In this document: positions 14,998 through 56,237 of the stretch, one piece after another
Numbering within the stretch: position 1 is the first letter of the stretch
How the letters are laid out: each line of letters begins with the position of its first letter
DNA from: an uncultured Acidobacteriota bacterium
GTDB taxonomy: Bacteria > Acidobacteriota > Polarisedimenticolia > JACPZX01
NCBI GenBank assembly: GCA_964568735.1
Contig: CAZMRF010000008.1
Coordinates: 42,261 to 101,633, forward strand
Length of the DNA stretch: 59,373 bases
Direction: 5' to 3'
Notes under the pieces: model-generated
Told to the model about the DNA's origin: nothing
Database searches by the model: none
The model's input: only the letters and a program-made list of their open reading frames with translations
Position numbers and translations under genes: made by a program

Positions 14998-15417
14998 ATG
15001 CAAGCCGCCCCGGCCCTCAGCGTGCTGACCTTCGAGGTCGGACCCTATCTCTTCGCGGTACCGGCGTCGGACGTGAGGAGAATCCTCAACTCGGGAGAGC
15101 AGCCTCCGGAGGGAACCACGATCGTGGACGCCGTCGGTCTGCTCCACGAAACAGAAGGCGCGGAATCCACGGGCCGGGAGGTTCTGCTCCTCCTGGCGGG
15201 AAGCACCCCTGCCGGATCGCCGCTCGCGGTGAGGGCCTCGCGGGCTGCGGAGGTGCGCCCGCTCAGGCCGGAGTGGCTGCTTCCATTTCCCGGCTTCATC
15301 TTCCGCAGGGAGAATCCTTTCCTCGGACTCGTTCCTCCGGGCGCGGGCTCGGAAACGAGGCCGGTCTTCGTTCTTGCGGGCCCGGAGAGGCTGCTGGCAT
15401 GCGCGGGCGACCTCTAG
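14998..15417 (+). CDS. CheW-like domain protein (degenerate)
   Basis: VLTFEVGPYLFAVPASDVRRIL resembles the CheW N-terminal motif (LTF.LG.E.YGI.V..V.EI), with C-terminal PVFVLAGPERLL. 140 aa. Confidence 0.55.
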   Translation: MQAAPALSVLTFEVGPYLFAVPASDVRRILNSGEQPPEGTTIVDAVGLLHETEGAESTGREVLLLLAGSTPAGSPLAVRASRAAEVRPLRPEWLLPFPGFIFRRENPFLGLVPPGAGSETRPVFVLAGPERLLACAGDL

Positions 15418-15863
15418 CGGGCGTCCCCTGGGTCGGGTTCCTGATCGACGAGGTCGCTCTCGCCGTCGAGGCGAGACTGGTCAAGGCGGTCACCTGGAGC
15501 CGGGGCCTCATCCGGGTGCCCTTCGTGAAGCGGAGCGTCGCCGGCGTGATCGTGCGGGGCGGAAGGATCGTCCCGGTCCTGGACCTGGCCCTGGTGCCCT
15601 CGGCGTGGAACCGAATGCCCCGCCCGGGCGGGAGCCAGGTCGTGATCGTCGGGGAGGGCGAGATGGAAGCCGGCATCCTCGCCCGCTCCACCGAGACCTT
15701 CCACGCCGCGGAGCTCCATGCGGCGACTGGAGGAGGGAGCCTTGCGCGGGTGAGGGAGTCCCTCCTGGAGGGGATTGTCGAGGTGGCCGGTAGAACGTAC
15801 GGGGTCTTGAAGATTTCCGTGGCGCTGCACGCGGCCGGGGTGCCGCAGACCTTCTCCGGGTAG
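15399..15863 (+). CDS. CheW-like domain protein (second copy, overlapping the first by 19 nt)
   Basis: VGFLIDEVALAVEARLVKAVTW...VAGVIVRGGRIVPVLDL...QVVIVGEGEMEAGILARSTETF fits CheW topology. 154 aa. Confidence 0.55.
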   Translation: MRGRPLAGVPWVGFLIDEVALAVEARLVKAVTWSRGLIRVPFVKRSVAGVIVRGGRIVPVLDLALVPSAWNRMPRPGGSQVVIVGEGEMEAGILARSTETFHAAELHAATGGGSLARVRESLLEGIVEVAGRTYGVLKISVALHAAGVPQTFSG

Positions 15864-15896: not shown

Positions 15897-16781
15897 ATGG
15901 CGAAGAAGATCCTGCTGGCCGATGACAGCATCACCATCCAGAAGGTCGTCGAGCTGACCTTCTCCGAAGGCGACTATGAGGTGTTCTGCGCGAGCGATGG
16001 CGCCCAGGCGATACGGAAGATCGAGGAGATCGTTCCCGACATCGCCCTCGTGGACGTCATGATGCCGCAGAGGAACGGGTACGACGTCTGCGCGCACGTC
16101 AAGAAGGATCCGAACCTCGCATGGATCCCCGTGCTCCTCCTCACCGGCACCTTCGAGCCGTACGATCCGAAGCGCGCCGGCGAGGTCGGAGCCGACGGGC
16201 ACATCATCAAGCCCTTCGAATCCAGGGCCCTCGTGGGCCAGGTCGAGGATCTCGTGTCGCGCCATCCGAGACCTGGAGCCAGGGGAGAGTCACGGGCACC
16301 CGTGATGCCGCCTCCGGCCGCCGCGCCCCAGGAAGCGAGGGAGAGACCGGCACCTGCGCCCCCGGCCGCTCTGGGCCCCGCGACCGTGCGGATCGACTCC
16401 CGCGCCTTCTTCAACCAGATGGAGCCGGCGGCGCCCCCGGCCGCGCCCACGCCGTCCCTGGGCCCGCTGGATCTCGGCTCAGGGGAGGGATCCATCGAGC
16501 CAACCCGGCCCATGCGCGCCACCGCGCCCCGTCCTCCCGCTCCCGCCCCCGTGGCAGCCACCGTCCCGAAGAGCGCGGGCCCCCGGGAGGAGGACATCGC
16601 GCGAGCCGCCCGGGAGAAGGTCGAGGAGCTGGCGAGGCCGATCATCGAGAAAGCGGCCGAGAAGATCATCCAGGAAATCGCCTGGGAGGTCATCCCCGAG
16701 CTTGCAGAGACGATCATCAAGCACAGGATCAAGGAGCTCGAGGAAGAGGCCGCCTCGGAGGGGGGAGCCCCGCTCCACTGA
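15897..16781 (+). CDS. Response regulator: receiver domain plus Pro/Ala-rich linker plus Glu-rich alpha-helical C-terminal segment (RomR-like architecture)
   Basis: REC: KILLADDSITIQKVVE...LVDVMMPQRNGYDV...HIIKPFE. An ~110-aa PAPAP-rich linker follows, then C-terminal EEDIARAAREKVEELARPIIEKAAEKIIQEIAWEVIPELAETIIKHRIKELEEEAASEG. Confidence 0.7.
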   Translation: MAKKILLADDSITIQKVVELTFSEGDYEVFCASDGAQAIRKIEEIVPDIALVDVMMPQRNGYDVCAHVKKDPNLAWIPVLLLTGTFEPYDPKRAGEVGADGHIIKPFESRALVGQVEDLVSRHPRPGARGESRAPVMPPPAAAPQEARERPAPAPPAALGPATVRIDSRAFFNQMEPAAPPAAPTPSLGPLDLGSGEGSIEPTRPMRATAPRPPAPAPVAATVPKSAGPREEDIARAAREKVEELARPIIEKAAEKIIQEIAWEVIPELAETIIKHRIKELEEEAASEGGAPLH

Positions 16782-28469: not shown

Positions 28470-28499
28470 TTGACTCCTCCGGCGCCACCGTTATAGATT
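28470..28499 (+). promoter_or_regulatory. Candidate sigma-70 promoter (TTGACT-16/18-TATAGAT) upstream of the mglA-like gene
   Basis: TTGACT at 28470-28475; TATAGAT at 28492-28499. Confidence 0.35.
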
Positions 28500-28517: not shown

Positions 28518-29804
28518 ATGGTCCTATTCAACTACTCGACAAAAGAGCTCACCGCCAAAATCGTCTACTACGGGCCCGGTCTTTGCGGGAAGACGACGAA
28601 CCTCCAGTTCATCTTCGAGAATCTCCCGGCGAACATCCACAAAGGGAAGATGCTCTCCCTGGCGACGAAGACGGACCGGACTCTCTTCTTCGATTTCCTG
28701 CCCATCGATCTCGGGACGATCCGCGGCATGCGGACCCGGCTGCAGCTCTACACCGTGCCGGGCCAGGTCTTCTACAACACCACGCGGAAGCTCGTCCTGA
28801 AGGGCGCGGATGGCCTCGTCTTCGTCGCCGACTCGCAGAAGAAGATGCTCGACGCCAACAGCGAGTCCTTCGGCAACATGGAACAGAACCTGCGCGAGCA
28901 CGGGATGGAGCTCGAGACCATCCCCCATGTCCTCCAGTTCAACAAGCGCGACCTCAGGGACATCCTGAGCGTCGAAGAGCTCAACGCCGCGCTCAACAAG
29001 CACAACGTGCCGATCTACGAGGCCGTGGCCACGACGGGGATCGGGGTCCAGGACACGCTCAAGGCGGTCACGCGACTGGTGCTGAACTCCCTCCGCGAGA
29101 AGTACTCCGACGGCAAGAAGACCTCGACGCAGCGCGCCGCCGCGGCCGCATCTGCCGCGCGGCCGGCCCGGCAGGCTGCCTCGGCCCAGGTCGCGCCCCG
29201 CGAGCCGCTCGAAGTCGAGCCTGTCCTCGAGCTCGACGATGAGCCGGCGCTGGCACCTTCTCGCGAGCCCGAACCCGTGCTCGCTGTCGCCGCCGAGGAG
29301 GCCGTGGAGATCGAGGAGATCCAGGACGACATCGAGGAGGTTCCTGTGCTCGAGGTCGCCGAGGAGGAGGTCGGAGAGGCCGTGATCATCGAGGAGTCTC
29401 CCGCGATCAGCCTCGACGAATCTTCGCCCCTCAAGCTCGAGGAGCCCGAAACCGGCGCGCCGGGCCGCTTCGACGAGATCGAGATGACCCCCGAAGCCGA
29501 AGAAGAGCCGGCGCAGGGAGCGCCTCTGGGTGCCGCGCGCGCCCGTCAGCCCTTCGAGATGGACTCGAAGGCCTACGAGCTGGCGTCGCCGCTCGACGAG
29601 ACCGTCGCGGACGGCGCGACGGTGGCGATCGACGTGGCTGCCGCGGGCTCGAGGAGCTCACCCGGGAGGCCGCCGCTTCCGGGGAGAAGGGCCGCGCCGG
29701 GCAGCTCCGCCGCCCGCGAGGCCTCCTTCCCGCTCGAGATCGAGGTCCAGGGCCGTACCGTGCGACTCGAGGTGACCATCAGCGTTCGGGTCGATAAGAA
29801 TTGA
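28518..29804 (+). CDS. mglA: MglA-family Ras-like small GTPase with a ~230-aa acidic, low-complexity C-terminal extension
   Basis: N-terminal ~195 aa strongly similar to Myxococcus MglA: KIVYYGPGLCGKTTNLQFI (P-loop), TDRTLFFDF (intrinsic Arg finger), LYTVPGQVFY (catalytic Gln), QFNKRDL (G4), TLKAVTRLVL. This is followed by a tail rich in E/A/P/V (EEVPVLEVAEEEVGEAVIIEESP...). Confidence 0.85.
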   Translation: MVLFNYSTKELTAKIVYYGPGLCGKTTNLQFIFENLPANIHKGKMLSLATKTDRTLFFDFLPIDLGTIRGMRTRLQLYTVPGQVFYNTTRKLVLKGADGLVFVADSQKKMLDANSESFGNMEQNLREHGMELETIPHVLQFNKRDLRDILSVEELNAALNKHNVPIYEAVATTGIGVQDTLKAVTRLVLNSLREKYSDGKKTSTQRAAAAASAARPARQAASAQVAPREPLEVEPVLELDDEPALAPSREPEPVLAVAAEEAVEIEEIQDDIEEVPVLEVAEEEVGEAVIIEESPAISLDESSPLKLEEPETGAPGRFDEIEMTPEAEEEPAQGAPLGAARARQPFEMDSKAYELASPLDETVADGATVAIDVAAAGSRSSPGRPPLPGRRAAPGSSAAREASFPLEIEVQGRTVRLEVTISVRVDKN

Positions 29805-29826
29805 GGGGGGAGCCGCTCCCCACACC

Positions 29827-31059
29827 ATGAACCTGGACTGTCCTGGCTGCCGATCCCGACTCAAGCTGGATCCTTCGAAGCTCCCGCCCGGGGCCACCGC
29901 GGCGGTTTGCCCGAAGTGCCGGACGAAGATCCTCCTGCCCGGCACCGCCTCCACGGCGGAGATTTCGGTCCAGTGCAGCAGGTGCGCCTCTCGCCTCAAG
30001 GTCAAGGTCGCGAGGCTCAGGCAGACTCCCAGCAAGAGCAAGTGCCCCAAGTGCGGAAACGCCGTGGACCTCCCCGCGGCGCCTTCCGCGGGGGGCTCCA
30101 GAAGCTCCGCCACGCAGATCCCCGGAGCGTCCCCGCCGGCGAAGCCCCCCCAGCCCCCCGGCGTGGACCGCTCGGCGATGACGCGCCGGCTCGATGCGCG
30201 GGAGATGGGGATGCTCATGCAGGGCCAGGGAGCCCAGGCTCCTGACGCACTGCCGTCGGCCCCGATCTCCCTCGAGGATCCGCCCTCCGGCGCCTTCGAG
30301 AGCAGCTCCTCCGATCTCGGCCGCCTCATCGACGAGAAGGTCGACGCCCTGGGCGAGCTCGGCGAAGCGCCGCCCCCCCAGAGCCCCCGCTTCGGCGAGT
30401 CATCCGTGGAGGATCTGGCCATCGAGCTCTCCCGGTCGGGGGAGCCCATGCCTGATGCCTCCCCGGAGCATCACGAATCGGGCGCCCGCATCTCCGCCGG
30501 CCCGAGGGCCGTCGCCGAGGCCCCGGCGCCGCCTGGCGCGCCTCCCGCAGGCCGGCGAGCGGGATCCAGTTCAGGAAGCAGGGCCATCCCCACCTTCAGC
30601 GCCGTGGCTGGAGCCGCGCCGCGGGCAGCCTCGGGGCCGGGAGCCTTCCCCTTCGTTCTCGGCGGAATCATCGGAGGATCGCTCGTGGCCGCCGGGCTCA
30701 TCCTCGGGGGACGCTTCCTGCCCTCCGGGTTCGTGCCTCCCGTCCCCGAACCGATCTCCGTGCTGACACGCGAGAGCCTCGGGCTCCTGGGGCTGTTGAT
30801 CTTCCTGTCGGCGCTCTCCGGGCTCTTCGCCTCCTTCGCGCTGCCCCCCGCGGGCGAGGGGAAGGAGGGCAGGATCTCCATTTTCCGGTGCGCGGTGGCC
30901 GCCGGGCTCGTGGGGCTTCTCGCGGGCGTGGGCATTGCCCTCATCCGCGGCGGCGCCGACCTCACGTCGATGTCCCTGCCGGCAGCCACGTGGACGGCGG
31001 CGCTGGTCCTCTCGGGACTGCTGACCGGCCTCGTGGCGCGTGTCTTCTCGGGCCGCTAG
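29827..31059 (+). CDS. Double zinc-ribbon (MJ0042-type) protein with Pro/Ala-rich linker and C-terminal transmembrane helices
   Basis: CPGC-x17-CPKC and CSRC-x17-CPKC ribbons at the N-terminus. A Pro/Ala/Ser-rich region follows, then 3-4 hydrophobic helices (FPFVLGGIIGGSLVAAGLILGG..., LLGLLIFLSALSGLFASFAL..., LVGLLAGVGIALI...). Confidence 0.65.
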   Translation: MNLDCPGCRSRLKLDPSKLPPGATAAVCPKCRTKILLPGTASTAEISVQCSRCASRLKVKVARLRQTPSKSKCPKCGNAVDLPAAPSAGGSRSSATQIPGASPPAKPPQPPGVDRSAMTRRLDAREMGMLMQGQGAQAPDALPSAPISLEDPPSGAFESSSSDLGRLIDEKVDALGELGEAPPPQSPRFGESSVEDLAIELSRSGEPMPDASPEHHESGARISAGPRAVAEAPAPPGAPPAGRRAGSSSGSRAIPTFSAVAGAAPRAASGPGAFPFVLGGIIGGSLVAAGLILGGRFLPSGFVPPVPEPISVLTRESLGLLGLLIFLSALSGLFASFALPPAGEGKEGRISIFRCAVAAGLVGLLAGVGIALIRGGADLTSMSLPAATWTAALVLSGLLTGLVARVFSGR

Positions 31060-31193
31060 GAGCCCCGGCGAGCCCCGGATCCGTCGCGCTCTCCGACGTT
31101 CGCAAGGGGGCGCCTCCCGTCTTAGAATCCAGCAGCCGTAGCGGAGCGCCGGCCGGGGTGGCCTACGACTCCCTCGCATTCCGGAGAGACACC

Positions 31194-32270
31194 TTGAGAC
31201 GACGGTTCCTCCTGCTCGTGATGACCGGGACGATGGCGGCGAGTGCAGCTCTCGCGCAGCCCTCCAGCCCGTCCGGCCTGAACGTCTACCCCTCCTTCCA
31301 TCTCAAGTTCGAGAGGGGGGGCGGGACCTATCTTCTCGCCAGCACGATCATCGTGAACGTCAGCGACAAGACCGTGCGCGACCTGACGCTCCAGCAGACC
31401 TACCCCCACGACCTGGTGCCCACGGCCGCGCCGGCGGGCATCCACGAGTACTTCGCACGGCCCGAGGGCTTCGTGGAATCGGTCGAGGGTCAGGTCTACA
31501 CGATGACGACCCCATTGCTCCGCAGGGGCGAGATGACCTCCGCTCTGGCCCTGCTGAAATACGATGGACGTCCCTCCACCGCCGTGATCCCTCCGGCGCA
31601 GATCAAGTACGCCGCCGCGGGCGAGAGCTTCACCGAGAGCGGGCCCGCGCTCACGCTCGATCTCAAGAAGTACACGAAGTACAGCGGGACGCTCGCCGAG
31701 TTCATCAAGCGCTACGCCGGGATTCTCCTCGAGTTCCCCGAGTCGGAGGGACCGGACTGGGGCTTCTCGGGCTTCGCATCCAGCGTCAGGGCGAAGACGC
31801 CCATCGGCATGGTGGAGATCGAGGGCGATGCGGCGGAAGGGCGCTTCAGCCTGATCCGGGGGGAGCCGGGCGACACGAGGCTGCTCCTCGTGGCCTGGAA
31901 GGCCGAGCCGAATGCGGGCTTGGCCGAGAGCAGGGCCCAGGTGCTCGACGTGGTCCGGCGCCAGATCATGCCGTCAGCGGCCTTCGAGCTCGACATGGAA
32001 GGCGCCACCGTCGAGAAGGGCCGTCTCGGCCGGTACGAGGCCTGGATCATCGCCTCCCGCTGGACCGACAAGGTCGTGGACCGGCTGGGTGAGGGCCCCG
32101 CGCGGTGGTACCTCTACGACGACACGACCAGGAAGCGACGGTACCTCGTGCTGATCGCCACGCAGGGGCGGGGAGCCGGCCCGGGCAAGGCGGACACTCC
32201 CAACCCCGAGAAGGAAGCAGCCCTGATGAAGGAGCTCGAGCAGATCGCGAGCAGCTTCCGGGCGCTCTAG
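31194..32270 (+). CDS. Secreted hypothetical protein (signal peptide; TTG start)
   Basis: Signal peptide MRRRFLLLVMTGTMAASAALA/QP; ~358 aa with no recognisable motif. Confidence 0.5.
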   Translation: MRRRFLLLVMTGTMAASAALAQPSSPSGLNVYPSFHLKFERGGGTYLLASTIIVNVSDKTVRDLTLQQTYPHDLVPTAAPAGIHEYFARPEGFVESVEGQVYTMTTPLLRRGEMTSALALLKYDGRPSTAVIPPAQIKYAAAGESFTESGPALTLDLKKYTKYSGTLAEFIKRYAGILLEFPESEGPDWGFSGFASSVRAKTPIGMVEIEGDAAEGRFSLIRGEPGDTRLLLVAWKAEPNAGLAESRAQVLDVVRRQIMPSAAFELDMEGATVEKGRLGRYEAWIIASRWTDKVVDRLGEGPARWYLYDDTTRKRRYLVLIATQGRGAGPGKADTPNPEKEAALMKELEQIASSFRAL

Positions 32271-32285
32271 GAGCCCGGCAGGATC

Positions 32286-33236
32286 ATGCCCCGCCTCCGG
32301 CGGTCCCTCCTCGGCGCTGCGGCAGCCTGCGTCGTCGCCTGCGCGGGGTCCTGGCTGGCGGGAGAGGTCAGCCCTCTGACCCTCTACCAGAAGACCGCGC
32401 GCGCGGCGCTCGTGGCCAGGGTCCGAGCCACCGACGACAGCACGCGACGCCCCACGCTCGAGGTCCTTCACGTATTCAAGGGGGACTACACACGGCCCTA
32501 CCTGACGATCGTGCCCTTCAGGCAGGACTACGCCAGCGAGAAGCCGTGGCTCCGCTCGGAAGTCTTCAGGGAAGGCCGGGAATACGTGCTCTTCCTGGAT
32601 CCCTACCACGAGGAGGCGAAGGCGGGCGATTTTCCCGTCGAGACTCCGGAGGCAGCCCCTCCGGAGGAGAACTCGCTCTTCGTCGTGCTCAACGCCCATC
32701 TCGGCGTGCTCGACGTTCCAGCCGAGGGCGGCGAGGCCCTCACCGGCGCCCTGGAGAGATTCGCCTCGATTCTCGCGCTGCGCGAGTTCGATCTCCAGGC
32801 GCGCGCCTTCCGCGCCCTTCTGCGCGAACCCAACCCGTACCTGCTGGAAGCGGGTCTCGACGAGGTCGCACGCTTCCGCCTGGCCACGGAGGACGATCTG
32901 GATCCTCTGGAGGCCACGCTCGGATCCGTTCGGCCCTCGTTCCGGCGATCGGCCGCCGAGATCCTCGGCCAGATCGGGGACGACGCCCGGCGGGCGGGAA
33001 GGAGGCTCTCCCGCCAGAGCGAGATCGTCGACAGGATCGCCGCGCGGGCCCTGACGGACGAGGCCGCCGAGGTGCGCGCCGAGTCGGCGAGGAGCCTCGG
33101 GCTCCTCGGTGGACCGGAGGCCGGGGCGCTCCTGCGCCGGATCAGCCGGCAGGATGCCGACCAGCAGGTCCGCTACAGCGCCGAGGTCGCCCTGGCGGAG
33201 ATCGAAGGAGGCCTTCCGCCCCCGCGCCACCGGTGA
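32286..33236 (+). CDS. HEAT-repeat (PBS-lyase-like) protein with N-terminal signal or lipoprotein-like sequence
   Basis: C-terminal repeats of the form R.SAAE.LG.IGD..A...L, VRAESARSLGLLGGPEAGALL, and QQVRYSAEVAL. N-terminal LLGAAAACVVACAG. Confidence 0.5.
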   Translation: MPRLRRSLLGAAAACVVACAGSWLAGEVSPLTLYQKTARAALVARVRATDDSTRRPTLEVLHVFKGDYTRPYLTIVPFRQDYASEKPWLRSEVFREGREYVLFLDPYHEEAKAGDFPVETPEAAPPEENSLFVVLNAHLGVLDVPAEGGEALTGALERFASILALREFDLQARAFRALLREPNPYLLEAGLDEVARFRLATEDDLDPLEATLGSVRPSFRRSAAEILGQIGDDARRAGRRLSRQSEIVDRIAARALTDEAAEVRAESARSLGLLGGPEAGALLRRISRQDADQQVRYSAEVALAEIEGGLPPPRHR

Positions 33237-50297: not shown

Positions 50298-50555
50298 CGA
50301 GAGTCGCGCCCTGCATAAAGTTTACATAAGATACATTATCGGCGGTCTGGGGATGGCGCCTCCTGGCCCGGGACTCCCGACGCGGCGCACGTCCCGCTGC
50401 CCAGGCCGCCTTTTCCGTCCATCCTGTCGCCTCCCGCTTCCAGCTCGACATCCGGGGCCTCGTCTTCCGATCGCCCCTCGCAACCCCACGGGCATGTGGT
50501 CTAGCATCCGGCGCGGCCTGACGCCCGATCCCGGACGCCGCCGCGGCACCCTGCC

Positions 50556-52997
50556 ATGACCCGCATCCAGCGATACGTCTTTCGCGAGCTCCTTGGTCCG
50601 ACCGTGGTGGGAGTTCTCGCCTACGGCCTGATCTTGATGACCAATCTCTCCATGCACGCCGCGGAAATGATGATCCGGAGGGATCTCCCGGTCAGCCTCG
50701 TCGCGCAGTTCGTGGCCCTGGCTCTTCCACGAATCGCCGTCCTGACTCTCCCCATGGCCGTCCTCCTGGGCACCCTCGTCGGAATCGGCCGTCTCGTCAG
50801 CGACAACGAGCTGTCGGCCCTCCGTTCGCTCGGCTACAACGATCGACGGCTGATCCTCCCAGCGCTCGCCCTGGGCTTGCTCGCCACGGCGGTCACCTGG
50901 GTGCTCTTCGACACCGCCGTTCCCACCGCCAACTACCAGCAGCACCAGCTCCAGGCGCGCATCTTCATCTCGTCCGACCTGAACAGGGAGATCCAGCCCC
51001 GGACCTTCTACGAGAAGATCCCGGGGCTCCTCATCTACGCCGACGAGGCGAATCCCACGGACGGCACGCTCCAGCGTGTCCTCATCCACCAGAAGACCGA
51101 GGGCGGCCGTGAGGAGATCTCGACCTCGGGGCGGGCCCGGATCGAGTACCGCGACGAGGACGGCGTGCTGAACTTCCGCCTGGAGGACGTCGTATCGCAC
51201 ACCTGGGACCAGGCCGACCCCCTCGTTTACCAGGTGGCTCGGCGCGACGAGGAGAGCATCGTTCGGCCTCCCGATATCTTCACGACGGAGATGCTCCGGT
51301 CGCTCGAAAAGCCTCCGCCGCCCAACCTCCGCGAGCAGAGCATGGTCCAGCTCCTCGACACCATACGCAGCTTCAAGCAGATGGAGCCCGGAGCCATCAG
51401 GCGCCGATACAGGAACGAGGCATGGGTCGAGCTCCACAAGAAGTTCGCCATCCCGGCGACCTGCCTCGTCTTCGCCTTCCTCGCGCTGCCGCTGGGTCTC
51501 TCCCAGCGCCGCGGAGGCCGGGCCTGGGGTTTCCTCATCTCCCTGCTGGTCGTGGCCGTCCAGTATTTTCTGCTCACGACCGGCGAGCAGACCGCCGACA
51601 GAGGGCGCATGCCGCCCTGGCTCGCCATGTGGCTGGGCAACCTCATCTTCCTCGCCGTCGGGTGCATTCTCCTCGCCATCGCGGGACGCTGGAGCTGGGA
51701 CCCGGGGGCCCTGCTCGCGCGAATGACTTTCAGGCGCCGCGGCGTCCCCGCGCCGGCCCCGGCGGAGCCGGAGCCCCCCGCTCAGCATCAGACAGCGGCG
51801 CTCCCTCAGGCCGCCCCTGAACCGACCGGGGCGGCAGCCGAGCTCCCACCCGTGCAGGCCGCCCGCGCTCCGCGCTTCATACCCCCCGAGCCGCTCCCCT
51901 GGCGCAGGAGGTTCCTGCCCGCCATCGACCTGTACATGCTCAGGACGCTGACCTTCGTCGGCGCCATCGTCGCCCTCTCGCTGACGCTCCTTTTCGCGCT
52001 CTACGCCATGGTCGATCTCATCGACGACATGAGCCGCGGCCGCGCCTCGCCTGCGCTCCTGCTCCAGTACCTCGGCAACGTGCTCCCGCAGTTCATCACG
52101 AGCTATGTCCTGCCGATGACCCTGTGCGCCGCCACGCTCATCACCTTCGCCCTTCTCGCGCGCACCCACGAGCTCACGGCGCTTCGCAGCGCCGGGGTCG
52201 GCCCCTTCCGCGTGGCCTGGACATTCCTGATCGTGGGGATCCTCGCCGCGGCGACCAGCTTCGGCGCCCTGGATTCCATACTCCCCGCCACCAACCAGAA
52301 CGCCATCGAGCTGCGGGACCGCATCCGGGGAAGGAGCCCGCGCAGCTACCGCCAGACCGAGCGGAGGTGGGTCTTCGGGAGCAGCGGCGATCTGGTCACC
52401 TTCTCGAGCTTGAGACCGGATCCCGGGGAGATCCTCGACCTGACGATGATGAAGTTCCATCCAGGCACCCTGCGCGTGAAGGAACGCATCTTCGCCGAGC
52501 GCGCCCTCTGGCACGAGGATCGGGGATGGGAGCTCGTCCATGGATGGCGCCGCGAATTCGGGGACGGGGGCGAGCGCTATGAGGAGTTCGATGTGCGGCC
52601 CGCGGCCGAGCTCGACCCGCCGGCCTATTTCTCCCAGGAATGGAAGGCGCCCGACCAGATGAACATCGGGGAGCTCCGTTCACACGTCTCCGATCTCAAG
52701 CGGCGCGGGTACGACACACGCGAGATCCAGGTCGGCCTCCATCGCAAGATCGCGGTTCCGGCCATCTGCGTGGTGATGGTCCTGATCGCGCTGCCCTTCG
52801 GCCTGCGGATCGAGAAGCGGGGGCCGCTCTTCGGCCTCGGCGTCGCGCTGCTCATCGCGGCCGTCTATTTCTTCCTCATGCAGGTGAGCGGGAAGGTCGG
52901 GGAGATCGGGCTCCTTCCGCCGGTACTGGCCGCGTGGGCGCCGAACGTCCTCTTCTCCGGCGCCGGGCTCTACCTCATGGCCTCGAGCCGCTGGTAG
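50556..52997 (+). CDS. Fused LptF-LptG-like LPS export permease (two YjgP/YjgQ permease modules in one 813-aa protein)
   Basis: First module: MTRIQRYVFRELLGPTVVGVLAYGLILMTN..., about residues 1-400. A Pro/Ala-rich linker follows. Second module starts LPAIDLYMLRTLTFVGAIVALSLTLLFALYAMVDLIDD... Each module has the typical 3 TM + periplasmic loop + 3 TM layout. Confidence 0.7.
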   Translation: MTRIQRYVFRELLGPTVVGVLAYGLILMTNLSMHAAEMMIRRDLPVSLVAQFVALALPRIAVLTLPMAVLLGTLVGIGRLVSDNELSALRSLGYNDRRLILPALALGLLATAVTWVLFDTAVPTANYQQHQLQARIFISSDLNREIQPRTFYEKIPGLLIYADEANPTDGTLQRVLIHQKTEGGREEISTSGRARIEYRDEDGVLNFRLEDVVSHTWDQADPLVYQVARRDEESIVRPPDIFTTEMLRSLEKPPPPNLREQSMVQLLDTIRSFKQMEPGAIRRRYRNEAWVELHKKFAIPATCLVFAFLALPLGLSQRRGGRAWGFLISLLVVAVQYFLLTTGEQTADRGRMPPWLAMWLGNLIFLAVGCILLAIAGRWSWDPGALLARMTFRRRGVPAPAPAEPEPPAQHQTAALPQAAPEPTGAAAELPPVQAARAPRFIPPEPLPWRRRFLPAIDLYMLRTLTFVGAIVALSLTLLFALYAMVDLIDDMSRGRASPALLLQYLGNVLPQFITSYVLPMTLCAATLITFALLARTHELTALRSAGVGPFRVAWTFLIVGILAAATSFGALDSILPATNQNAIELRDRIRGRSPRSYRQTERRWVFGSSGDLVTFSSLRPDPGEILDLTMMKFHPGTLRVKERIFAERALWHEDRGWELVHGWRREFGDGGERYEEFDVRPAAELDPPAYFSQEWKAPDQMNIGELRSHVSDLKRRGYDTREIQVGLHRKIAVPAICVVMVLIALPFGLRIEKRGPLFGLGVALLIAAVYFFLMQVSGKVGEIGLLPPVLAAWAPNVLFSGAGLYLMASSRW

Positions 52998-55983
52998 CCG
53001 ACGAAGCCTCTTCCAGGAGCCGGCGGATATCGGGCTGGGCCGGGTCGAGCGACAGGGATTCACGCGCCGCTTTCACCGCCTCCCCGGCGCGGCCCCTCGC
53101 AAGGTAGAGGCGCGCCAGCGCGTTCCGGGGGGCCGGCCACTTCGGATTCGAGGCCCTCGCGCGCTCCAGCTCCTCGCGTCCCTCCTCCTCTTTCCCCTGC
53201 CGCACGAGAAGGATGCCCAGCTCCAGCCGTGCCCGAGCGTGATTCGCATCCAGCGCGAGGATCTGCCGCAGCGAGCGGTCGGCCTCGCGCAGCATCCCCC
53301 TGCGGATGAGATTGAGGGAGAGGTTCAGCCGGGCGTCGGTGTAGTCTGGCTCGAGATCGATGGCCTTCAGGTACTCCTCGAACTCCCCTTCCGGGTCGCC
53401 GAGGAGCCCCAGGACCGCCCCCAGGTTGTTGTGCGCGGATGCGTAGGAGGGGTCGAAGTCGATGGCCTGCCCGAAGGCCTCCTTGGCCTCGTCGCGCCGC
53501 TCCAGCGCCAGCAGCGCCGAGCCGCGGCTGTTCCAGATCACTGCGTTTTCCGGATCTGCCTCCAGTCCCGTGGCGTAGGCCTTCAGGGCCTCCTCGAGCC
53601 TGCCCTGATCCTGGAGGACGAGCCCGAGGTTGTTCCACGAGCCGGGGAACTCGGGGTCGGCCTGGATCGCCCTCCTGAACTCGGCCATCGCCTCGTCGAG
53701 CCGCCCCTGCTCGCGCCGGATGAGTCCGCTGTTGTTGATAGCCTCGGCATAGTCCCCGTCGATCTCTTCAACCCTGCGGTAGGCCGCGAGCGCCTCTTCG
53801 CTCCTTCCCTGCCGCGCGAGCGTGATCCCGAGGCTGTTCCACAGGTGCGGGTTGCGCGCGTCCTTCTCGAGGGCCCGGCGGAAGGTCTTCTCGGCCCGAT
53901 CGACCTCCCCACGCTCCAGGAGGACATTCCCGATCAGGTTGTCCACGTCCGGCAGCTCGGGATCCGCCCTGCGGGCCGCCTCCAGCTCCTCCAGGGCCTT
54001 GTCGAGCTTCCCGGCGGCCATCAAGGCCCTGGCCACATTCATCCGTGCCGCGTAGAAGGACGGGTCCTGATCGAGGGCCTTCCTGAAGGCCTGCTCGGCC
54101 TCCGCGCTCCTCCCCTGCTGCAGCAGGGCGATACCGACATTGTTGGAGGCGTTGGGCGTTGTCTGGCCCAGGTAGCCGAGGGCCGTCAGCTTGGCGAGCA
54201 TCTCCCTCTCGACCGCCTCGGAAGCGGCGTCGTTCCCGGCCGGCAGATCCGCGGGGAGATCCCCGGTCCCCTCCCAGGTCGCGATGCGCTCCACGGCCTC
54301 AGGCGGGCCCTCCTCGAGAAGGGCCGTGACGACCCGGCCGTCCATGTCTTCGCCCACGGGCAGACCCATGAGCTCGAGCAGCGTCGGCGTCACGTCCAGG
54401 ATCGAGACGTCGCTCAGGGCGCCGCCCTTGCGGATGCCCGGTCCCGCGACGGCGAAGATGCCGAACTTCCGGTGCCAGTCGGCGGCCATCCCCACGCCTA
54501 TCCTCGGATCGGTCTGCGGGCGGGTCGAGCCGCTCTTGAATCCGTGGTCCGACACGACCATCACCGTCGTACCCGCTCCCGCCGCCTCCAGGAGCTCCCC
54601 GAGCAGCTTGTCTTGAAGCTTGCAGAAGCGCTCCACGACGGCTCCCCACCGTTCCACGGCTTCGGGCCGGACTCCCGGGAGTCGCGGCGGTGCGTAGCGC
54701 ATGAAGAGGTGAGATACCGTATCGATCCCCTCGTAGTAGACGGTGGTCACGCGGGGGCGGTACTCCTTCAGGAGGCGCAGGGCGGCGTGGTGATAGGTCC
54801 GGGTCGAGACGAGGATTTGCCGGAGCGCCGACTCGTCCTCGTTCCCGGGATCGGCCTCGCGCCCCAGGAGCCCGGTGAGGTCATCGCCCGCGCGGCGGGA
54901 AGCCACCCGGATCTCGGGCGCGAGCGAGAGGATGAGCCCCTCGGGCCAGGTTCGTCCCCTGAGGGCCTCCCCCGACGCCTGCCCTCCGAAGAGCTGGTAG
55001 GCGACCCGATCGCTGACCTGGAAGCCGAGCACCCTCTCCGCGGGCCACGTAGCCCACCATCCCACGGTCCCCACGGTGATGCCGCGCCCCGAGAAGATCT
55101 CCCAGAAGGCCCTGGCTTTCCGCATCGTGCTGGTGACCGGCATCTCCCGGCCCGTCCTCGAATCGACGGCGAGGAAGTCCACGATACCGTGCTTCTCGGG
55201 GACCTTGCCCGTCGCCATCGACGTCCAGAGGATCGGAGAGAGCATCGGCGAGAGGGCTTTCATCCGGGCCTTGACTCCTTCCTGCACCAGGCGCCTGAGG
55301 TTCGGCATCTCCCCTCTCTCCATCAAGGGGTCGAGGACCTTCCAGTCAGCGCCGTCGAGTCCGATGAGCAGGATCCGTCTTCCGTCCCCGGATTCGGGAT
55401 CGAAACCCCGCTCGTAGAGCTCCGGCCAGAAGCCCATCTGCTCGAAGGAATCGGCCTTCAGGCCCACCGAAGCGAGGGCCGCCCGGATCGAATCCGCGAG
55501 CGCTTCCGCGGGCGCCGATGAGAGCGAGAGAAGCTCGTCGAGGCTGTGCTGCGACGCCACCGCTCCCGCGGCCCCGGCGACGATTCTCGCGAGGATCGCC
55601 GGGTCGCCAAGGCTGCCGCTGGGGAGCAGGGCGAGCCGTCCGGCCGCGCTCCGATCGGGGTGGAGGCTGATCGTGGCCGAGAGGCGCACAGGCGTCCCCT
55701 CGCGGCTGGCCAGCGGCTTTCCTTCGACCTCGCGCACCACGAGGTCGGCCTGGAAGGGTCGGGCAGGGAGGCGGCGGATCCGGCTCAGGAAGGGCAGGCG
55801 CCAGTGGAAGCCCGGCTCGACGGCCCGGTACTCCGCCGACCCCGCACGGCCGCAGATGACGATCTCATCGTCTCCCGGGGGTACGTGGTAGATCCCGGCC
55901 GCGACCAGCGCCGCCCCGACAAGAAGGAGCGCCGTGAGACTGCCCGCCCGGCTCAACGTGATGCCTCCCCGAGAATCCGTCAT
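52975..55983 (-). CDS. Membrane-anchored type-I phosphodiesterase/nucleotide pyrophosphatase (alkaline-phosphatase superfamily) with a long C-terminal TPR-repeat region
   Basis: N-terminal TM (SLTALLLVGAALVAAGIY). AlkP-core motifs ([35 protein letters not shown]). At least 10 TPR-like repeats in the C-terminal 450 aa (AE.AFRKALDQDP..., AL.AY...LE.DP...). 1002 aa. Confidence 0.7.
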   Translation of the reverse strand: MTDSRGGITLSRAGSLTALLLVGAALVAAGIYHVPPGDDEIVICGRAGSAEYRAVEPGFHWRLPFLSRIRRLPARPFQADLVVREVEGKPLASREGTPVRLSATISLHPDRSAAGRLALLPSGSLGDPAILARIVAGAAGAVASQHSLDELLSLSSAPAEALADSIRAALASVGLKADSFEQMGFWPELYERGFDPESGDGRRILLIGLDGADWKVLDPLMERGEMPNLRRLVQEGVKARMKALSPMLSPILWTSMATGKVPEKHGIVDFLAVDSRTGREMPVTSTMRKARAFWEIFSGRGITVGTVGWWATWPAERVLGFQVSDRVAYQLFGGQASGEALRGRTWPEGLILSLAPEIRVASRRAGDDLTGLLGREADPGNEDESALRQILVSTRTYHHAALRLLKEYRPRVTTVYYEGIDTVSHLFMRYAPPRLPGVRPEAVERWGAVVERFCKLQDKLLGELLEAAGAGTTVMVVSDHGFKSGSTRPQTDPRIGVGMAADWHRKFGIFAVAGPGIRKGGALSDVSILDVTPTLLELMGLPVGEDMDGRVVTALLEEGPPEAVERIATWEGTGDLPADLPAGNDAASEAVEREMLAKLTALGYLGQTTPNASNNVGIALLQQGRSAEAEQAFRKALDQDPSFYAARMNVARALMAAGKLDKALEELEAARRADPELPDVDNLIGNVLLERGEVDRAEKTFRRALEKDARNPHLWNSLGITLARQGRSEEALAAYRRVEEIDGDYAEAINNSGLIRREQGRLDEAMAEFRRAIQADPEFPGSWNNLGLVLQDQGRLEEALKAYATGLEADPENAVIWNSRGSALLALERRDEAKEAFGQAIDFDPSYASAHNNLGAVLGLLGDPEGEFEEYLKAIDLEPDYTDARLNLSLNLIRRGMLREADRSLRQILALDANHARARLELGILLVRQGKEEEGREELERARASNPKWPAPRNALARLYLARGRAGEAVKAARESLSLDPAQPDIRRLLEEASSATSGSRP

Positions 55984-56237
55984 CCGGCGCGCGGCCGGAG
56001 GTTCCCGAGCATTCTAGTCCCCGCCTCCGGGCGCGCCTCCCCTCCCGCCCGGGCCTCCTCCCCGACGATCGAGTTCGGTGTGCCGGCCGGCGGAGGGGCT
56101 GGCTCCGTGAGCCGGTGCTCGAGGGCCGCAGCCGGGAACGGGTGAGGAGATCGAGCCCTAGAGTCAGCGTCGAGGCGCGACGGCGAGCCCGCCCGACGGG
56201 CCTGGAGGTCCGGAACGTTGCGGAATCCGGCCGGCTC

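What the first reader, a model, noticed from the sequence alone, without database searches (positions are those of the whole stretch)
29827..31059. Double zinc-ribbon membrane protein encoded 22 nt downstream of mglA: candidate GltJ-like MglA effector
Two MJ0042-type C4 zinc ribbons (CPGC..CPKC; CSRC..CPKC) sit at the cytoplasmic N-terminus. A Pro/Ala-rich linker and 3-4 TM helices follow. In Myxococcus the zinc-ribbon domain of the gliding-motor protein GltJ binds MglA-GTP directly. A zinc-ribbon membrane protein translationally linked to mglA therefore suggests a compact GTPase-effector pair, possibly a minimal polarity or adhesion switch.
Basis: inference. Interest (0 to 1): 0.65.

Follow-up and report, generated by a model that had tools for sequence, protein, structure and literature searches.

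The report
Zinc-ribbon membrane partner of long-tailed MglA
In an uncultured class of Acidobacteriota, the polarity GTPase MglA carries a long acidic tail and is always co-transcribed with a small membrane protein bearing two zinc ribbons; this is probably its membrane docking or regulatory partner, but no binding has been shown.

Summary
ORF 29827-31059(+) encodes 410 aa: two MJ0042/ZitP-type C4 zinc ribbons, a largely disordered Pro/Ala-rich linker and four TM helices. It starts 22 nt after a true mglA.

New facts:
- This MglA has a ~235-aa acidic tail.
- In all 14 distinct loci where both genes can be read, long mglA lies immediately upstream (18-29 nt gap in ten, a 4-nt overlap in three, 123 nt in one).
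- An invariant TTGACTC-N17-TAGATT promoter footprint precedes mglA. A second footprint precedes the next gene, so mglA and the ZnR gene look like their own bicistronic operon.
- The family is tiny: 86 hits among 1.84 billion representatives. Named members belong to Candidatus Polarisedimenticolia.
- An invariant linker motif (T-R-R-L-D-x-R) is the best candidate contact site.

In Myxococcus GltJ the linker binds MglA-GTP; the ZnR binds the linker and MglB. The protein has no GYF domain and no glt context, so it is not a GltJ homologue.

A distant double-ZnR-GYF membrane protein sits beside a homologue of the downstream periplasmic gene with a DUF294-type nucleotidyltransferase gene, not mglA, directly upstream. 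The protein may therefore primarily serve an envelope module.

Direct MglA binding is inferred, not tested.

The parts
28470..28499 (+). Sigma-70-like promoter (TTGACT-18-TAGATT) in the der-mglA gap
   Evidence: The scan found 4 sites against 0.2 expected in shuffles. TTGACTC-N17-TAGATT is invariant in 10 loci whose spacers are otherwise 46% identical.
28518..29102 (+). mglA G domain (aa 1-195)
   Evidence: Matches PDB 5ymx/6h17 MglA at E 1.5e-75. The domain is 80-91% identical across loci.
29103..29804 (+). MglA C-terminal extension (aa 196-428): Pro/Ala stretch, acidic region with EPVLEV-like repeats, and a conserved terminal segment FPLEIEVQGRTVRLEVTISVRV
   Evidence: Net charge is -29 in the window and -22 to -58 in complete tails of relatives. 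The last ~35 aa are conserved. No Pfam domain was found.
29803..29812 (+). Purine-rich Shine-Dalgarno-like run GAGGGGGGAG in the 22-nt gap
   Evidence: Read directly from the sequence.
29827..31059 (+). ZnR-4TM gene (410 aa), the finding itself
29827..29940 (+). Zinc ribbon 1 (aa 1-38; C5, C8, C28, C31)
   Evidence: Pfam and TIGR02098 hits. The cysteines are invariant. ZitP-like fold.
29956..30078 (+). Zinc ribbon 2 (aa 44-84; C50, C53, C73, C76), followed by LPAAP
   Evidence: The ZnR pair has net charge +12 in the window and +8 to +12 in relatives.
30175..30222 (+). Conserved linker motif (aa 117-132, A-M-T-R-R-L-D-A-R-E-M-G...), with a short helix at 124-132
   Evidence: T119, R121 and D123 are invariant and R120 nearly so across 18 sequences. 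The pattern occurs once per locus, always at this place. Helix.
30295..30357 (+). Conserved helix (aa 157-177, SSSSDLGRLIDEKVDALGELG)
   Evidence: D163, L164, L167 and I168 are invariant within the closer subclade. AF2 predicts helix 157-177. The distant subclade has a different helix here.
30358..30636 (+). Variable Pro/Ala-rich disordered linker (aa 178-270)
   Evidence: pLDDT is mostly below 50. P+A fraction is 0.38. Length and sequence vary between homologues.
30637..31056 (+). Four-helix membrane domain (aa 271-410)
   Evidence: AF2 helices with pLDDT 82-94. Four hydropathy peaks. No significant PDB fold match; best E 0.7.
31099..31128 (+). Second promoter-like site (TTCGCA-18-TAGAAT) ahead of the next gene
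   Evidence: Found in the scan. TCGCAA...TAGAAT is conserved in five loci of the closer subclade, and a -10-like TAnAnT element occurs in most of the eight aligned loci.
31194..32270 (+). Exported ~355-aa protein ('g3'): signal peptide, beta-sandwich and PsbP-like domain. The TTG start at 31194 is inferred.
32286..33236 (+). Exported HEAT-repeat protein (possible lipobox VVAC)
   Evidence: Pfam HEAT_2 E 1.3e-11. Always follows g3. N-terminal sequences.

Best explanation
The ORF encodes the inner-membrane partner of an unusual, long-tailed MglA.

The two genes form their own bicistronic operon. The protein is anchored by four TM helices. It presents about 270 cytoplasmic residues: two strongly basic ZitP/GltJ-type zinc ribbons, an invariant short motif (T-R-R-[LI]-D-x-R), a helix and a floppy Pro/Ala linker.

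Most likely it is a membrane docking and regulatory site for MglA. It would couple the GTPase switch to an envelope module made of the next two genes, a periplasmic beta-sandwich/PsbP-like protein and an exported HEAT protein.

By analogy with GltJ, MglA-GTP most plausibly contacts the invariant linker motif. The zinc ribbons would act as switch or recruitment modules, for that linker, for MglB, or for MglA's own acidic tail.

Shown here: the domain anatomy, operon structure, co-conservation, and the conserved motif and charges. Inferred: every physical contact and the direction of signalling.
For: 1. Adjacency holds in 14 of 14 distinct loci spanning two deep subclades (26-30% identity). The gap is 18-29 nt in ten loci, a 4-nt overlap in three and 123 nt in one.
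2. An invariant promoter footprint precedes mglA. A second footprint precedes g3. No promoter-like site lies between mglA and the ZnR gene.
3. The four-gene block survives where flanking genes change: L002 lacks glnA-glnE, and subclade B has a PEGA gene inserted.
4. The linker motif is invariant inside otherwise disordered, variable sequence.
5. The one distant double-ZnR relative whose upstream neighbour is not mglA also lacks this motif.
6. Charges are complementary everywhere: ZnR pair +8 to +12, MglA tail -22 to -58.
7. There is precedent. The GltJ N-terminal ZnR-linker is an MglA-GTP-operated switch on a membrane protein, and the ZitP ZnR is a polar adaptor.
8. ZnR1 has the same Cys positions as the GltJ ZnR: 5, 8, 28 and 31.
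9. A RomR-like response regulator lies in the same window, consistent with a working MglA polarity module.
Against:
- All loci come from one class, in which the wider gene order (comEC to scpAB) is also conserved. Adjacency alone is therefore weak evidence.
- In L018 a homologous double-ZnR membrane protein is coupled to a g3 homologue but follows a DUF294 nucleotidyltransferase gene, not mglA. The older partnership may be ZnR protein with g3.
- No MglB was found in the window.
Confidence: 0.4

Rival explanations
1. The protein belongs to an envelope module and has no direct MglA contact. It would be the membrane subunit of a complex with the periplasmic g3 protein and the HEAT protein. Co-transcription with mglA would reflect shared regulation, or lineage-wide synteny, in one class.
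For: - L018 has a double-ZnR membrane protein (ZnR pair hhalign probability 99.1%) next to a g3 homologue (probability 97.8%, E 1.2e-12). The gene overlapping its start is a DUF294 nucleotidyltransferase, not mglA.
- The first periplasmic loop carries nearly invariant prolines, P299 and P307.
- The whole neighbourhood is syntenic across the class.
Against: - g3-HEAT appear to have their own promoter, whereas mglA and the ZnR gene share one and are translationally coupled.
- About 270 conserved cytoplasmic residues, including an invariant motif, need a cytoplasmic ligand.
- L018 is a single 3.9-kb contig cut inside the upstream gene. Its protein has a GYF domain and lacks the motif, so it may be a different subfamily.
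Confidence: 0.3
2. Electrostatic tether. The two basic zinc ribbons bind the acidic EPVLEV-repeat tail of MglA constitutively. The tail plus the ZnR-4TM protein would then act as a membrane anchor for the GTPase, independent of nucleotide state.
For: Conserved opposite charges in every locus, including the distant subclade. The long tail has been seen only in MglAs encoded next to this gene. The ZnR pair and the tail are both family-specific features.
Against: Charge complementarity is not specificity. Basic zinc ribbons could equally bind anionic lipids or nucleic acid. No structural prediction was possible. The tail sequence is poorly conserved apart from its last ~35 residues.
Confidence: 0.15
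3. A true GltJ orthologue, that is, a component of an Agl-Glt-type gliding motor.
For: N-terminal ZnR with identical Cys spacing, followed by a disordered linker and a membrane anchor.
Against: No GYF domain. A four-TM bundle with no sizeable periplasmic domain. No sequence match beyond the zinc ribbon. No glt or agl genes among the window ORFs scanned. The family is confined to one acidobacterial class.
Confidence: 0.03

Closest known systems
GltJ (Myxococcus xanthus Agl-Glt focal-adhesion protein; Attia et al. 2024, PMC11135422)
   Same: Membrane protein with an N-terminal cytoplasmic MJ0042-type ZnR (Cys 5, 8, 28, 31). A disordered linker follows and carries a short conserved motif. It is functionally tied to MglA.
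   Different: GltJ has one ZnR, a GYF domain and a glt gene context. Its ZnR does not bind MglA; the linker does, and the ZnR recruits MglB. The window protein has two ZnRs, no GYF domain and a compact 4-TM anchor. It is co-transcribed with mglA itself and occurs in Acidobacteriota. Attia et al. state that outside Myxococcales ZnR-GYF proteins do not correlate with mglA-mglB operons.
ZitP (Caulobacter crescentus zinc-finger polar adaptor, PDB 2nb9)
   Same: The same zinc-ribbon fold (rmsd 1.5 A; phmmer E 0.046) at the cytoplasmic N-terminus of a membrane protein. The ZnR is used for protein-protein recruitment.
   Different: ZitP has a single ZnR, one TM helix and a DUF3426 domain, and it binds PopZ. 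None of these was detected here.
Bacterial ZnR-linker-GYF membrane proteins (class described by Attia et al.); example P0099 in locus L018
   Same: The double ZnR is homologous (hhalign probability 99.1%). Pro/Ala linker and multi-TM C-terminus. The next gene is a g3 homologue.
   Different: P0099 has a GYF_2-like domain (E 4.6e-5). It lacks the T-R-R-L-D-x-R motif and follows a DUF294 nucleotidyltransferase gene instead of mglA.
Canonical mglB-mglA (group 1 MglA) modules
   Same: The G domain is a typical group 1 MglA with P-loop, intrinsic Arg and catalytic Gln.
   Different: It has a ~235-390-aa acidic C-terminal extension. No Roadblock/MglB gene lies within four genes or was found in the 59-kb window, so it is an 'orphan' in the sense of Wuichet and Sogaard-Andersen. 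Its partner gene is a ZnR membrane protein.

Membership tests
MJ0042-type zinc ribbon (Pfam Zn_ribbon_4 / TIGR02098) | Two CxxC pairs about 19 residues apart, with the profile score above the curated cut-off | tested here: met
   PF13717 scores 43.2 bits against 30.3, in two stretches. TIGR02098 scores 24.2 bits against 20.9. All eight Cys are invariant.
MJ0042-type zinc ribbon (Pfam Zn_ribbon_4 / TIGR02098) | ZitP/GltJ-like two-hairpin fold | tested here: met
   The AF2 model matches 2nb9 at rmsd 1.5 A over 37 columns, TM-score (target) 0.63, probability 0.82.
GltJ | N-terminal cytoplasmic ZnR with Cys 5/8/28/31 | tested here: met
GltJ | GYF domain after the linker (GltJ residues 138-222) | tested here: not met
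   A Pfam scan at E<=0.1 lists only zinc-ribbon families. AF2 shows only a helix at 157-177.
GltJ | Linker motif that binds MglA-GTP and competes with the ZnR | not testable with these tools
   A conserved linker motif exists.
GltJ | Encoded with, and part of, the Agl-Glt gliding machinery | tested here: not met
   No glt or agl-type genes among the window ORFs scanned. The neighbours are der, g3, HEAT and glnA.
ZitP | Single TM helix followed by a DUF3426 domain | tested here: not met
   Four TM helices, no DUF3426 hit.
ZitP | ZnR binds PopZ | not testable with these tools
   No PopZ search was made. From my own knowledge, PopZ is an alphaproteobacterial protein.
MglA (group 1), for the upstream gene | Ras-like G domain with PGLCGKT P-loop, intrinsic Arg finger and catalytic Gln, closely similar to solved MglAs | tested here: met
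   E 1.5e-75 to 5ymx over residues 3-194. The motifs are present.
MglA (group 1), for the upstream gene | Coupled to an mglB (Roadblock/LC7) gene within four genes | tested here: not met
   No Robl_LC7 hit in the window ORFs scanned. The rest of the genome was not seen.

The most novel reading that the evidence does not exclude
Polarisedimenticolia may have evolved a bacterial counterpart of the eukaryotic small-GTPase membrane anchor. The acidic C-terminal 'hypervariable' tail of MglA would be captured by the twin basic zinc ribbons of a dedicated 4-TM receptor. The receptor's invariant T-R-R-L-D-x-R motif would read the GTP state. One two-gene operon would thus place a Ras-like switch on the membrane and relay it to a periplasmic PsbP-like/HEAT module.
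Probability: 0.15. Interest if true: 0.7.

Novelty: new variant of a known kind. Interest (0 to 1): 0.45.

Why it matters
MglA is the best-studied bacterial Ras-like polarity switch, yet nearly all mechanistic work comes from Myxococcus. Attia et al. report that outside Myxococcales ZnR-GYF membrane proteins do not correlate with mglA-mglB operons.

Here a ZnR membrane protein is hard-wired to mglA in a two-gene operon, and MglA itself is fused to a long acidic tail. If the two proteins bind, this is a minimal and experimentally tractable GTPase-receptor pair. It would show that the ZnR-linker switch idea extends beyond gliding motors.

It would also give a first functional handle on a family that NCBI annotates as 'hypothetical protein', in a class for which the papers found here draw on MAGs and metagenomes. 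If they do not bind, the locus is an ordinary lineage-specific envelope operon.

Tried and rejected
No interface test was possible.
2. Foldseek against afdb50 was unavailable. The PDB search gave no significant match for the 4-TM domain; the best hit had E 0.7 and was a generic helix bundle.
3. The exact look-up of the window protein found no contig.
4. The profile search with A4 was limited by the word prefilter and added only one member.
5. The genome-contig scan found one locus and the metagenome scan four.
6. The linker of the RomR-like response regulator contains ATVRIDSRAFF, which resembles the ZnR-4TM motif. An unbiased profile HMM of the motif scores it at E = 2, ranked 8th among six-frame ORFs. 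I rejected it as chance-level.
7. I looked for MglB/Roadblock in the window and found none. The remaining gaps hold no convincing ORF.
8. GC3 does not discriminate the ORF from its antisense ORFs: 0.87 against 0.84-0.85. Coding status rests on homology and Pfam hits.
9. No supplements were held for the GltJ paper, so the linker motifs could not be compared.
10. The PDB holds no RomR-like chain among the matches, so the response regulator could not be confirmed as RomR by sequence. NCBIfam has no specific model for it.

Full report
**1. What is there**

The ORF at 29827-31059 (+) is real. It begins with ATG 22 nt after the TGA of the preceding gene, behind a GAGGGGGGAG run.

Its product (410 aa) passes Pfam's cut-off for Zn_ribbon_4 with two stretches (E 3.8e-11). 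It also passes NCBIfam's cut-off for the MJ0042 CXXC domain. The two C4 sites are C5/C8/C28/C31 and C50/C53/C73/C76. All eight cysteines are invariant in 18 homologues that fall to 26% identity.

An AlphaFold2 model from a 16-sequence alignment has mean pLDDT 68.8. It shows:
- two four-stranded ribbons (pLDDT 80-90);
- a short helix at 124-132 and a helix at 157-177;
- a disordered Pro/Ala-rich stretch up to about residue 270;
- four TM helices (274-294, 316-337, 352-373, 379-409; pLDDT 82-94).

A hydropathy scan finds the same four segments. One ribbon superposes on the ZitP zinc finger 2nb9 (rmsd 1.5 A over 37 columns). The 4-TM bundle has no significant match in the PDB (best E 0.7).

With N-terminal zinc sites and an even number of helices, both ends should be cytoplasmic. 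This is an inference.

**2. The upstream gene**

Gene 28518-29804 encodes a genuine group-1 MglA. It matches M. xanthus MglA structures at E 1.5e-75 and has the P-loop, the intrinsic arginine and the catalytic glutamine.

It is 428 aa long, against the 195-203 aa of the solved MglA chains. Residues 196-428 form a tail with no Pfam domain and net charge -29. The tail carries EPVLEV-like repeats and a conserved last segment, FPLEIEVQGRTVRLEVTISVRV.

No Roadblock/MglB gene was found among the window's ORFs. By the four-gene criterion of Wuichet and Sogaard-Andersen this is an orphan MglA.

**3. Distribution and gene context**

The family is very small.
- The word-indexed search found 18 clusters.
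- An exhaustive HMMER scan of 1.84 billion representatives found 86 proteins at E<=1e-3 and 35 at E<=1e-10.
- Named relatives of the downstream gene are from Candidatus Polarisedimenticolia, a class of Acidobacteriota.
- The single GTDB species hit is an uncultured Acidobacteriota MAG.
- NCBI calls family members 'hypothetical protein'.

Both genes can be read in 14 distinct loci: the window, L001, L002, L003/4, L005-L010, L011/12, L013, L014/15 and L019. In every one the order is der, long mglA, ZnR-4TM, a ~360-aa exported protein ('g3'), then a HEAT protein.

The mglA-ZnR spacing is 18-29 nt in the closer subclade. It is a 4-nt overlap in three loci of the distant subclade. In L013 the gap is 123 nt, and that mglA looks frameshifted.

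The MglA G domain is 80-91% identical across these loci. The ZnR-4TM protein is only 26-78% identical.

**4. Operon structure**

The whole neighbourhood is syntenic in this class, so adjacency alone is weak evidence. Two further observations sharpen it.

First, a consensus scan finds four sigma-70-like sites between 26600 and 33600, against 0.2 expected. One is in front of the hu gene, one in front of mglA (28470-28499), one in front of g3 (31099-31128) and one in front of glnA. None lies between mglA and the ZnR gene.

Second, TTGACTC-N17-TAGATT ahead of mglA is invariant in ten loci of both subclades, while the rest of the spacer is 46% identical. The g3 upstream element TCGCAA...TAGAAT is conserved in the closer subclade.

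The best reading is two transcription units, mglA-ZnR4TM and g3-HEAT. The four-gene block also survives where the flanks change: glnA-glnE are absent in L002, and a PEGA gene is inserted in the distant subclade.

**5. Features that suggest a cytoplasmic ligand**

- Inside otherwise disordered and variable sequence, the motif A-x-T-R-R-[LI]-D-x-R-x-[LM]-G has T119, R121 and D123 invariant.
- The pattern occurs exactly once per locus, always at this place.
- The ZnR pair has net charge +8 to +12 in every homologue. Complete MglA tails carry -22 to -58.

These features are shown. That they mediate contact with MglA is inferred.

**6. Comparison with what is known**

Attia et al. 2024 report the following:
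- Neither the isolated ZnR nor the GYF domain of GltJ interacts with MglA-GTP.
- The linker motif L86-T107 does.
- The ZnR binds this linker intramolecularly, is released by MglA-GTP, and then recruits MglB.

A second paper repeats that the GltJ ZnR interacts with MglB. The GltJ ZnR uses C5, C8, C28 and C31, the same positions as ZnR1 here, and resembles ZitP.

The window protein therefore shares the 'N-terminal ZnR plus disordered linker with a conserved motif on a membrane protein' design. It fails the GltJ membership tests: no GYF domain, a 4-TM anchor, and no glt/agl context. It also lacks ZitP's DUF3426 domain.

The same paper states that outside Myxococcales ZnR-GYF proteins do not correlate with mglA-mglB operons. 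A ZnR membrane protein co-transcribed with mglA in Acidobacteriota is therefore a new variant rather than a known case.

**7. A cautionary relative**

Among the weak hits of the exhaustive search, P0099 (431 aa) has:
- a homologous double ZnR (hhalign probability 99.1%);
- a GYF_2-like domain (E 4.6e-5, just under Pfam's cut-off);
- a multi-TM C-terminus, but not the T-R-R-L-D-x-R motif.

On its 3.9-kb contig (L018) the next gene is a g3 homologue (probability 97.8%, E 1.2e-12). The gene overlapping its start by 4 nt is a DUF294-type nucleotidyltransferase, not mglA.

This single locus suggests that the pairing of a ZnR membrane protein with g3 may be older than the link to mglA. It also suggests that the motif travels with mglA. 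It keeps alive the rival view that the protein primarily serves an envelope module.

**8. The neighbours**

The HEAT protein also has an export signal, with a lipobox in some members. Both should be periplasmic and cannot touch MglA. They could touch the conserved periplasmic loop of the ZnR-4TM protein (P299 and P307).

**9. Verdict**

The mechanistic analogy needs correcting, and no interface evidence exists.

My best explanation (confidence 0.4) is a membrane docking and regulatory partner of the long-tailed MglA. It would contact MglA through the invariant linker motif and/or through ZnR-tail electrostatics, and it would be linked to the periplasmic g3/HEAT pair. The main rival (0.3) is an envelope-module subunit without direct MglA contact.

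I rate novelty as a new variant of a known kind, and interest as moderate (0.45). It is a clean, testable two-gene system in an uncultured lineage, but it currently rests on comparative genomics alone.

Noticed in passing
window 29103-29804: MglA carries a ~235-aa C-terminal extension: a Pro/Ala stretch, an acidic region with 3-4 EPVLEV-like repeats, and a conserved beta-like last ~25-35 aa (FPLEIEVQGRTVRLEVTISVRV). Tails of 220-390 aa with net charge -22 to -58 occur in the related loci. No domain hit and no literature were found.
   Followed up: partly
window 15897-16781 (+), with 15405-15863 (+) just upstream: A response regulator with REC, a Pro/Ala-rich linker and a Glu-rich helical C-terminus containing one Trp and one Pro (EIAWEVIPELAE). 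This fits the published description of RomR, the MglA polarity partner. A CheW-like domain gene lies directly upstream. It was not confirmed by sequence comparison with RomR.
   Followed up: partly
window 16383-16415: The response-regulator linker contains ATVRIDSRAFF, which resembles the ZnR-4TM motif. A profile HMM of the motif scores it at E = 2, so the resemblance is chance-level.
   Followed up: yes
[not shown]
   Followed up: partly
L018 1-3947: A distant locus has a DUF294 nucleotidyltransferase gene overlapping by 4 nt a double-ZnR, GYF_2-like, multi-TM protein (P0099), followed by a g3 homologue. mglA is not the adjacent upstream gene on this short contig, which is cut at its 5' end.
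   Followed up: partly
window 28470-28499 and 31099-31128; alignments A5, A6: Phylogenetic footprints of sigma-70-type promoters. TTGACTC-N17-TAGATT is invariant ahead of mglA in 10 loci. The distant subclade also has a ~50-nt longer, partly conserved 5' leader.
   Followed up: yes
L005 7947-9242 (P0018); several family members: The database start of P0018 cuts off zinc ribbon 1. The ORF extends upstream to LNLECPGC. Many members translate with L or V at the first residue in the six-frame read, so they appear to start at non-ATG codons such as TTG, CTG or GTG.
   Followed up: partly
L013 4884-6644; L006 ~6700: The mglA of L013 lacks the conserved terminal segment and leaves a 123-nt gap, probably an assembly frameshift. 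The L006 tail contains a run of N.
   Followed up: no
L016 (GCA_035646975.1): A contig labelled 'Patescibacteria group bacterium' has the same ZnR-4TM, g3, HEAT, glnA, glnE context as the Polarisedimenticolia loci. This is probably a binning error.
   Followed up: no
window 52975-56013 (-) and 50505-52997 (+): A 1012-aa protein combines SPFH/Band_7, a type I phosphodiesterase domain and many TPR repeats. An 830-aa protein has two LptF/LptG matches, apparently a fused permease.
   Followed up: no
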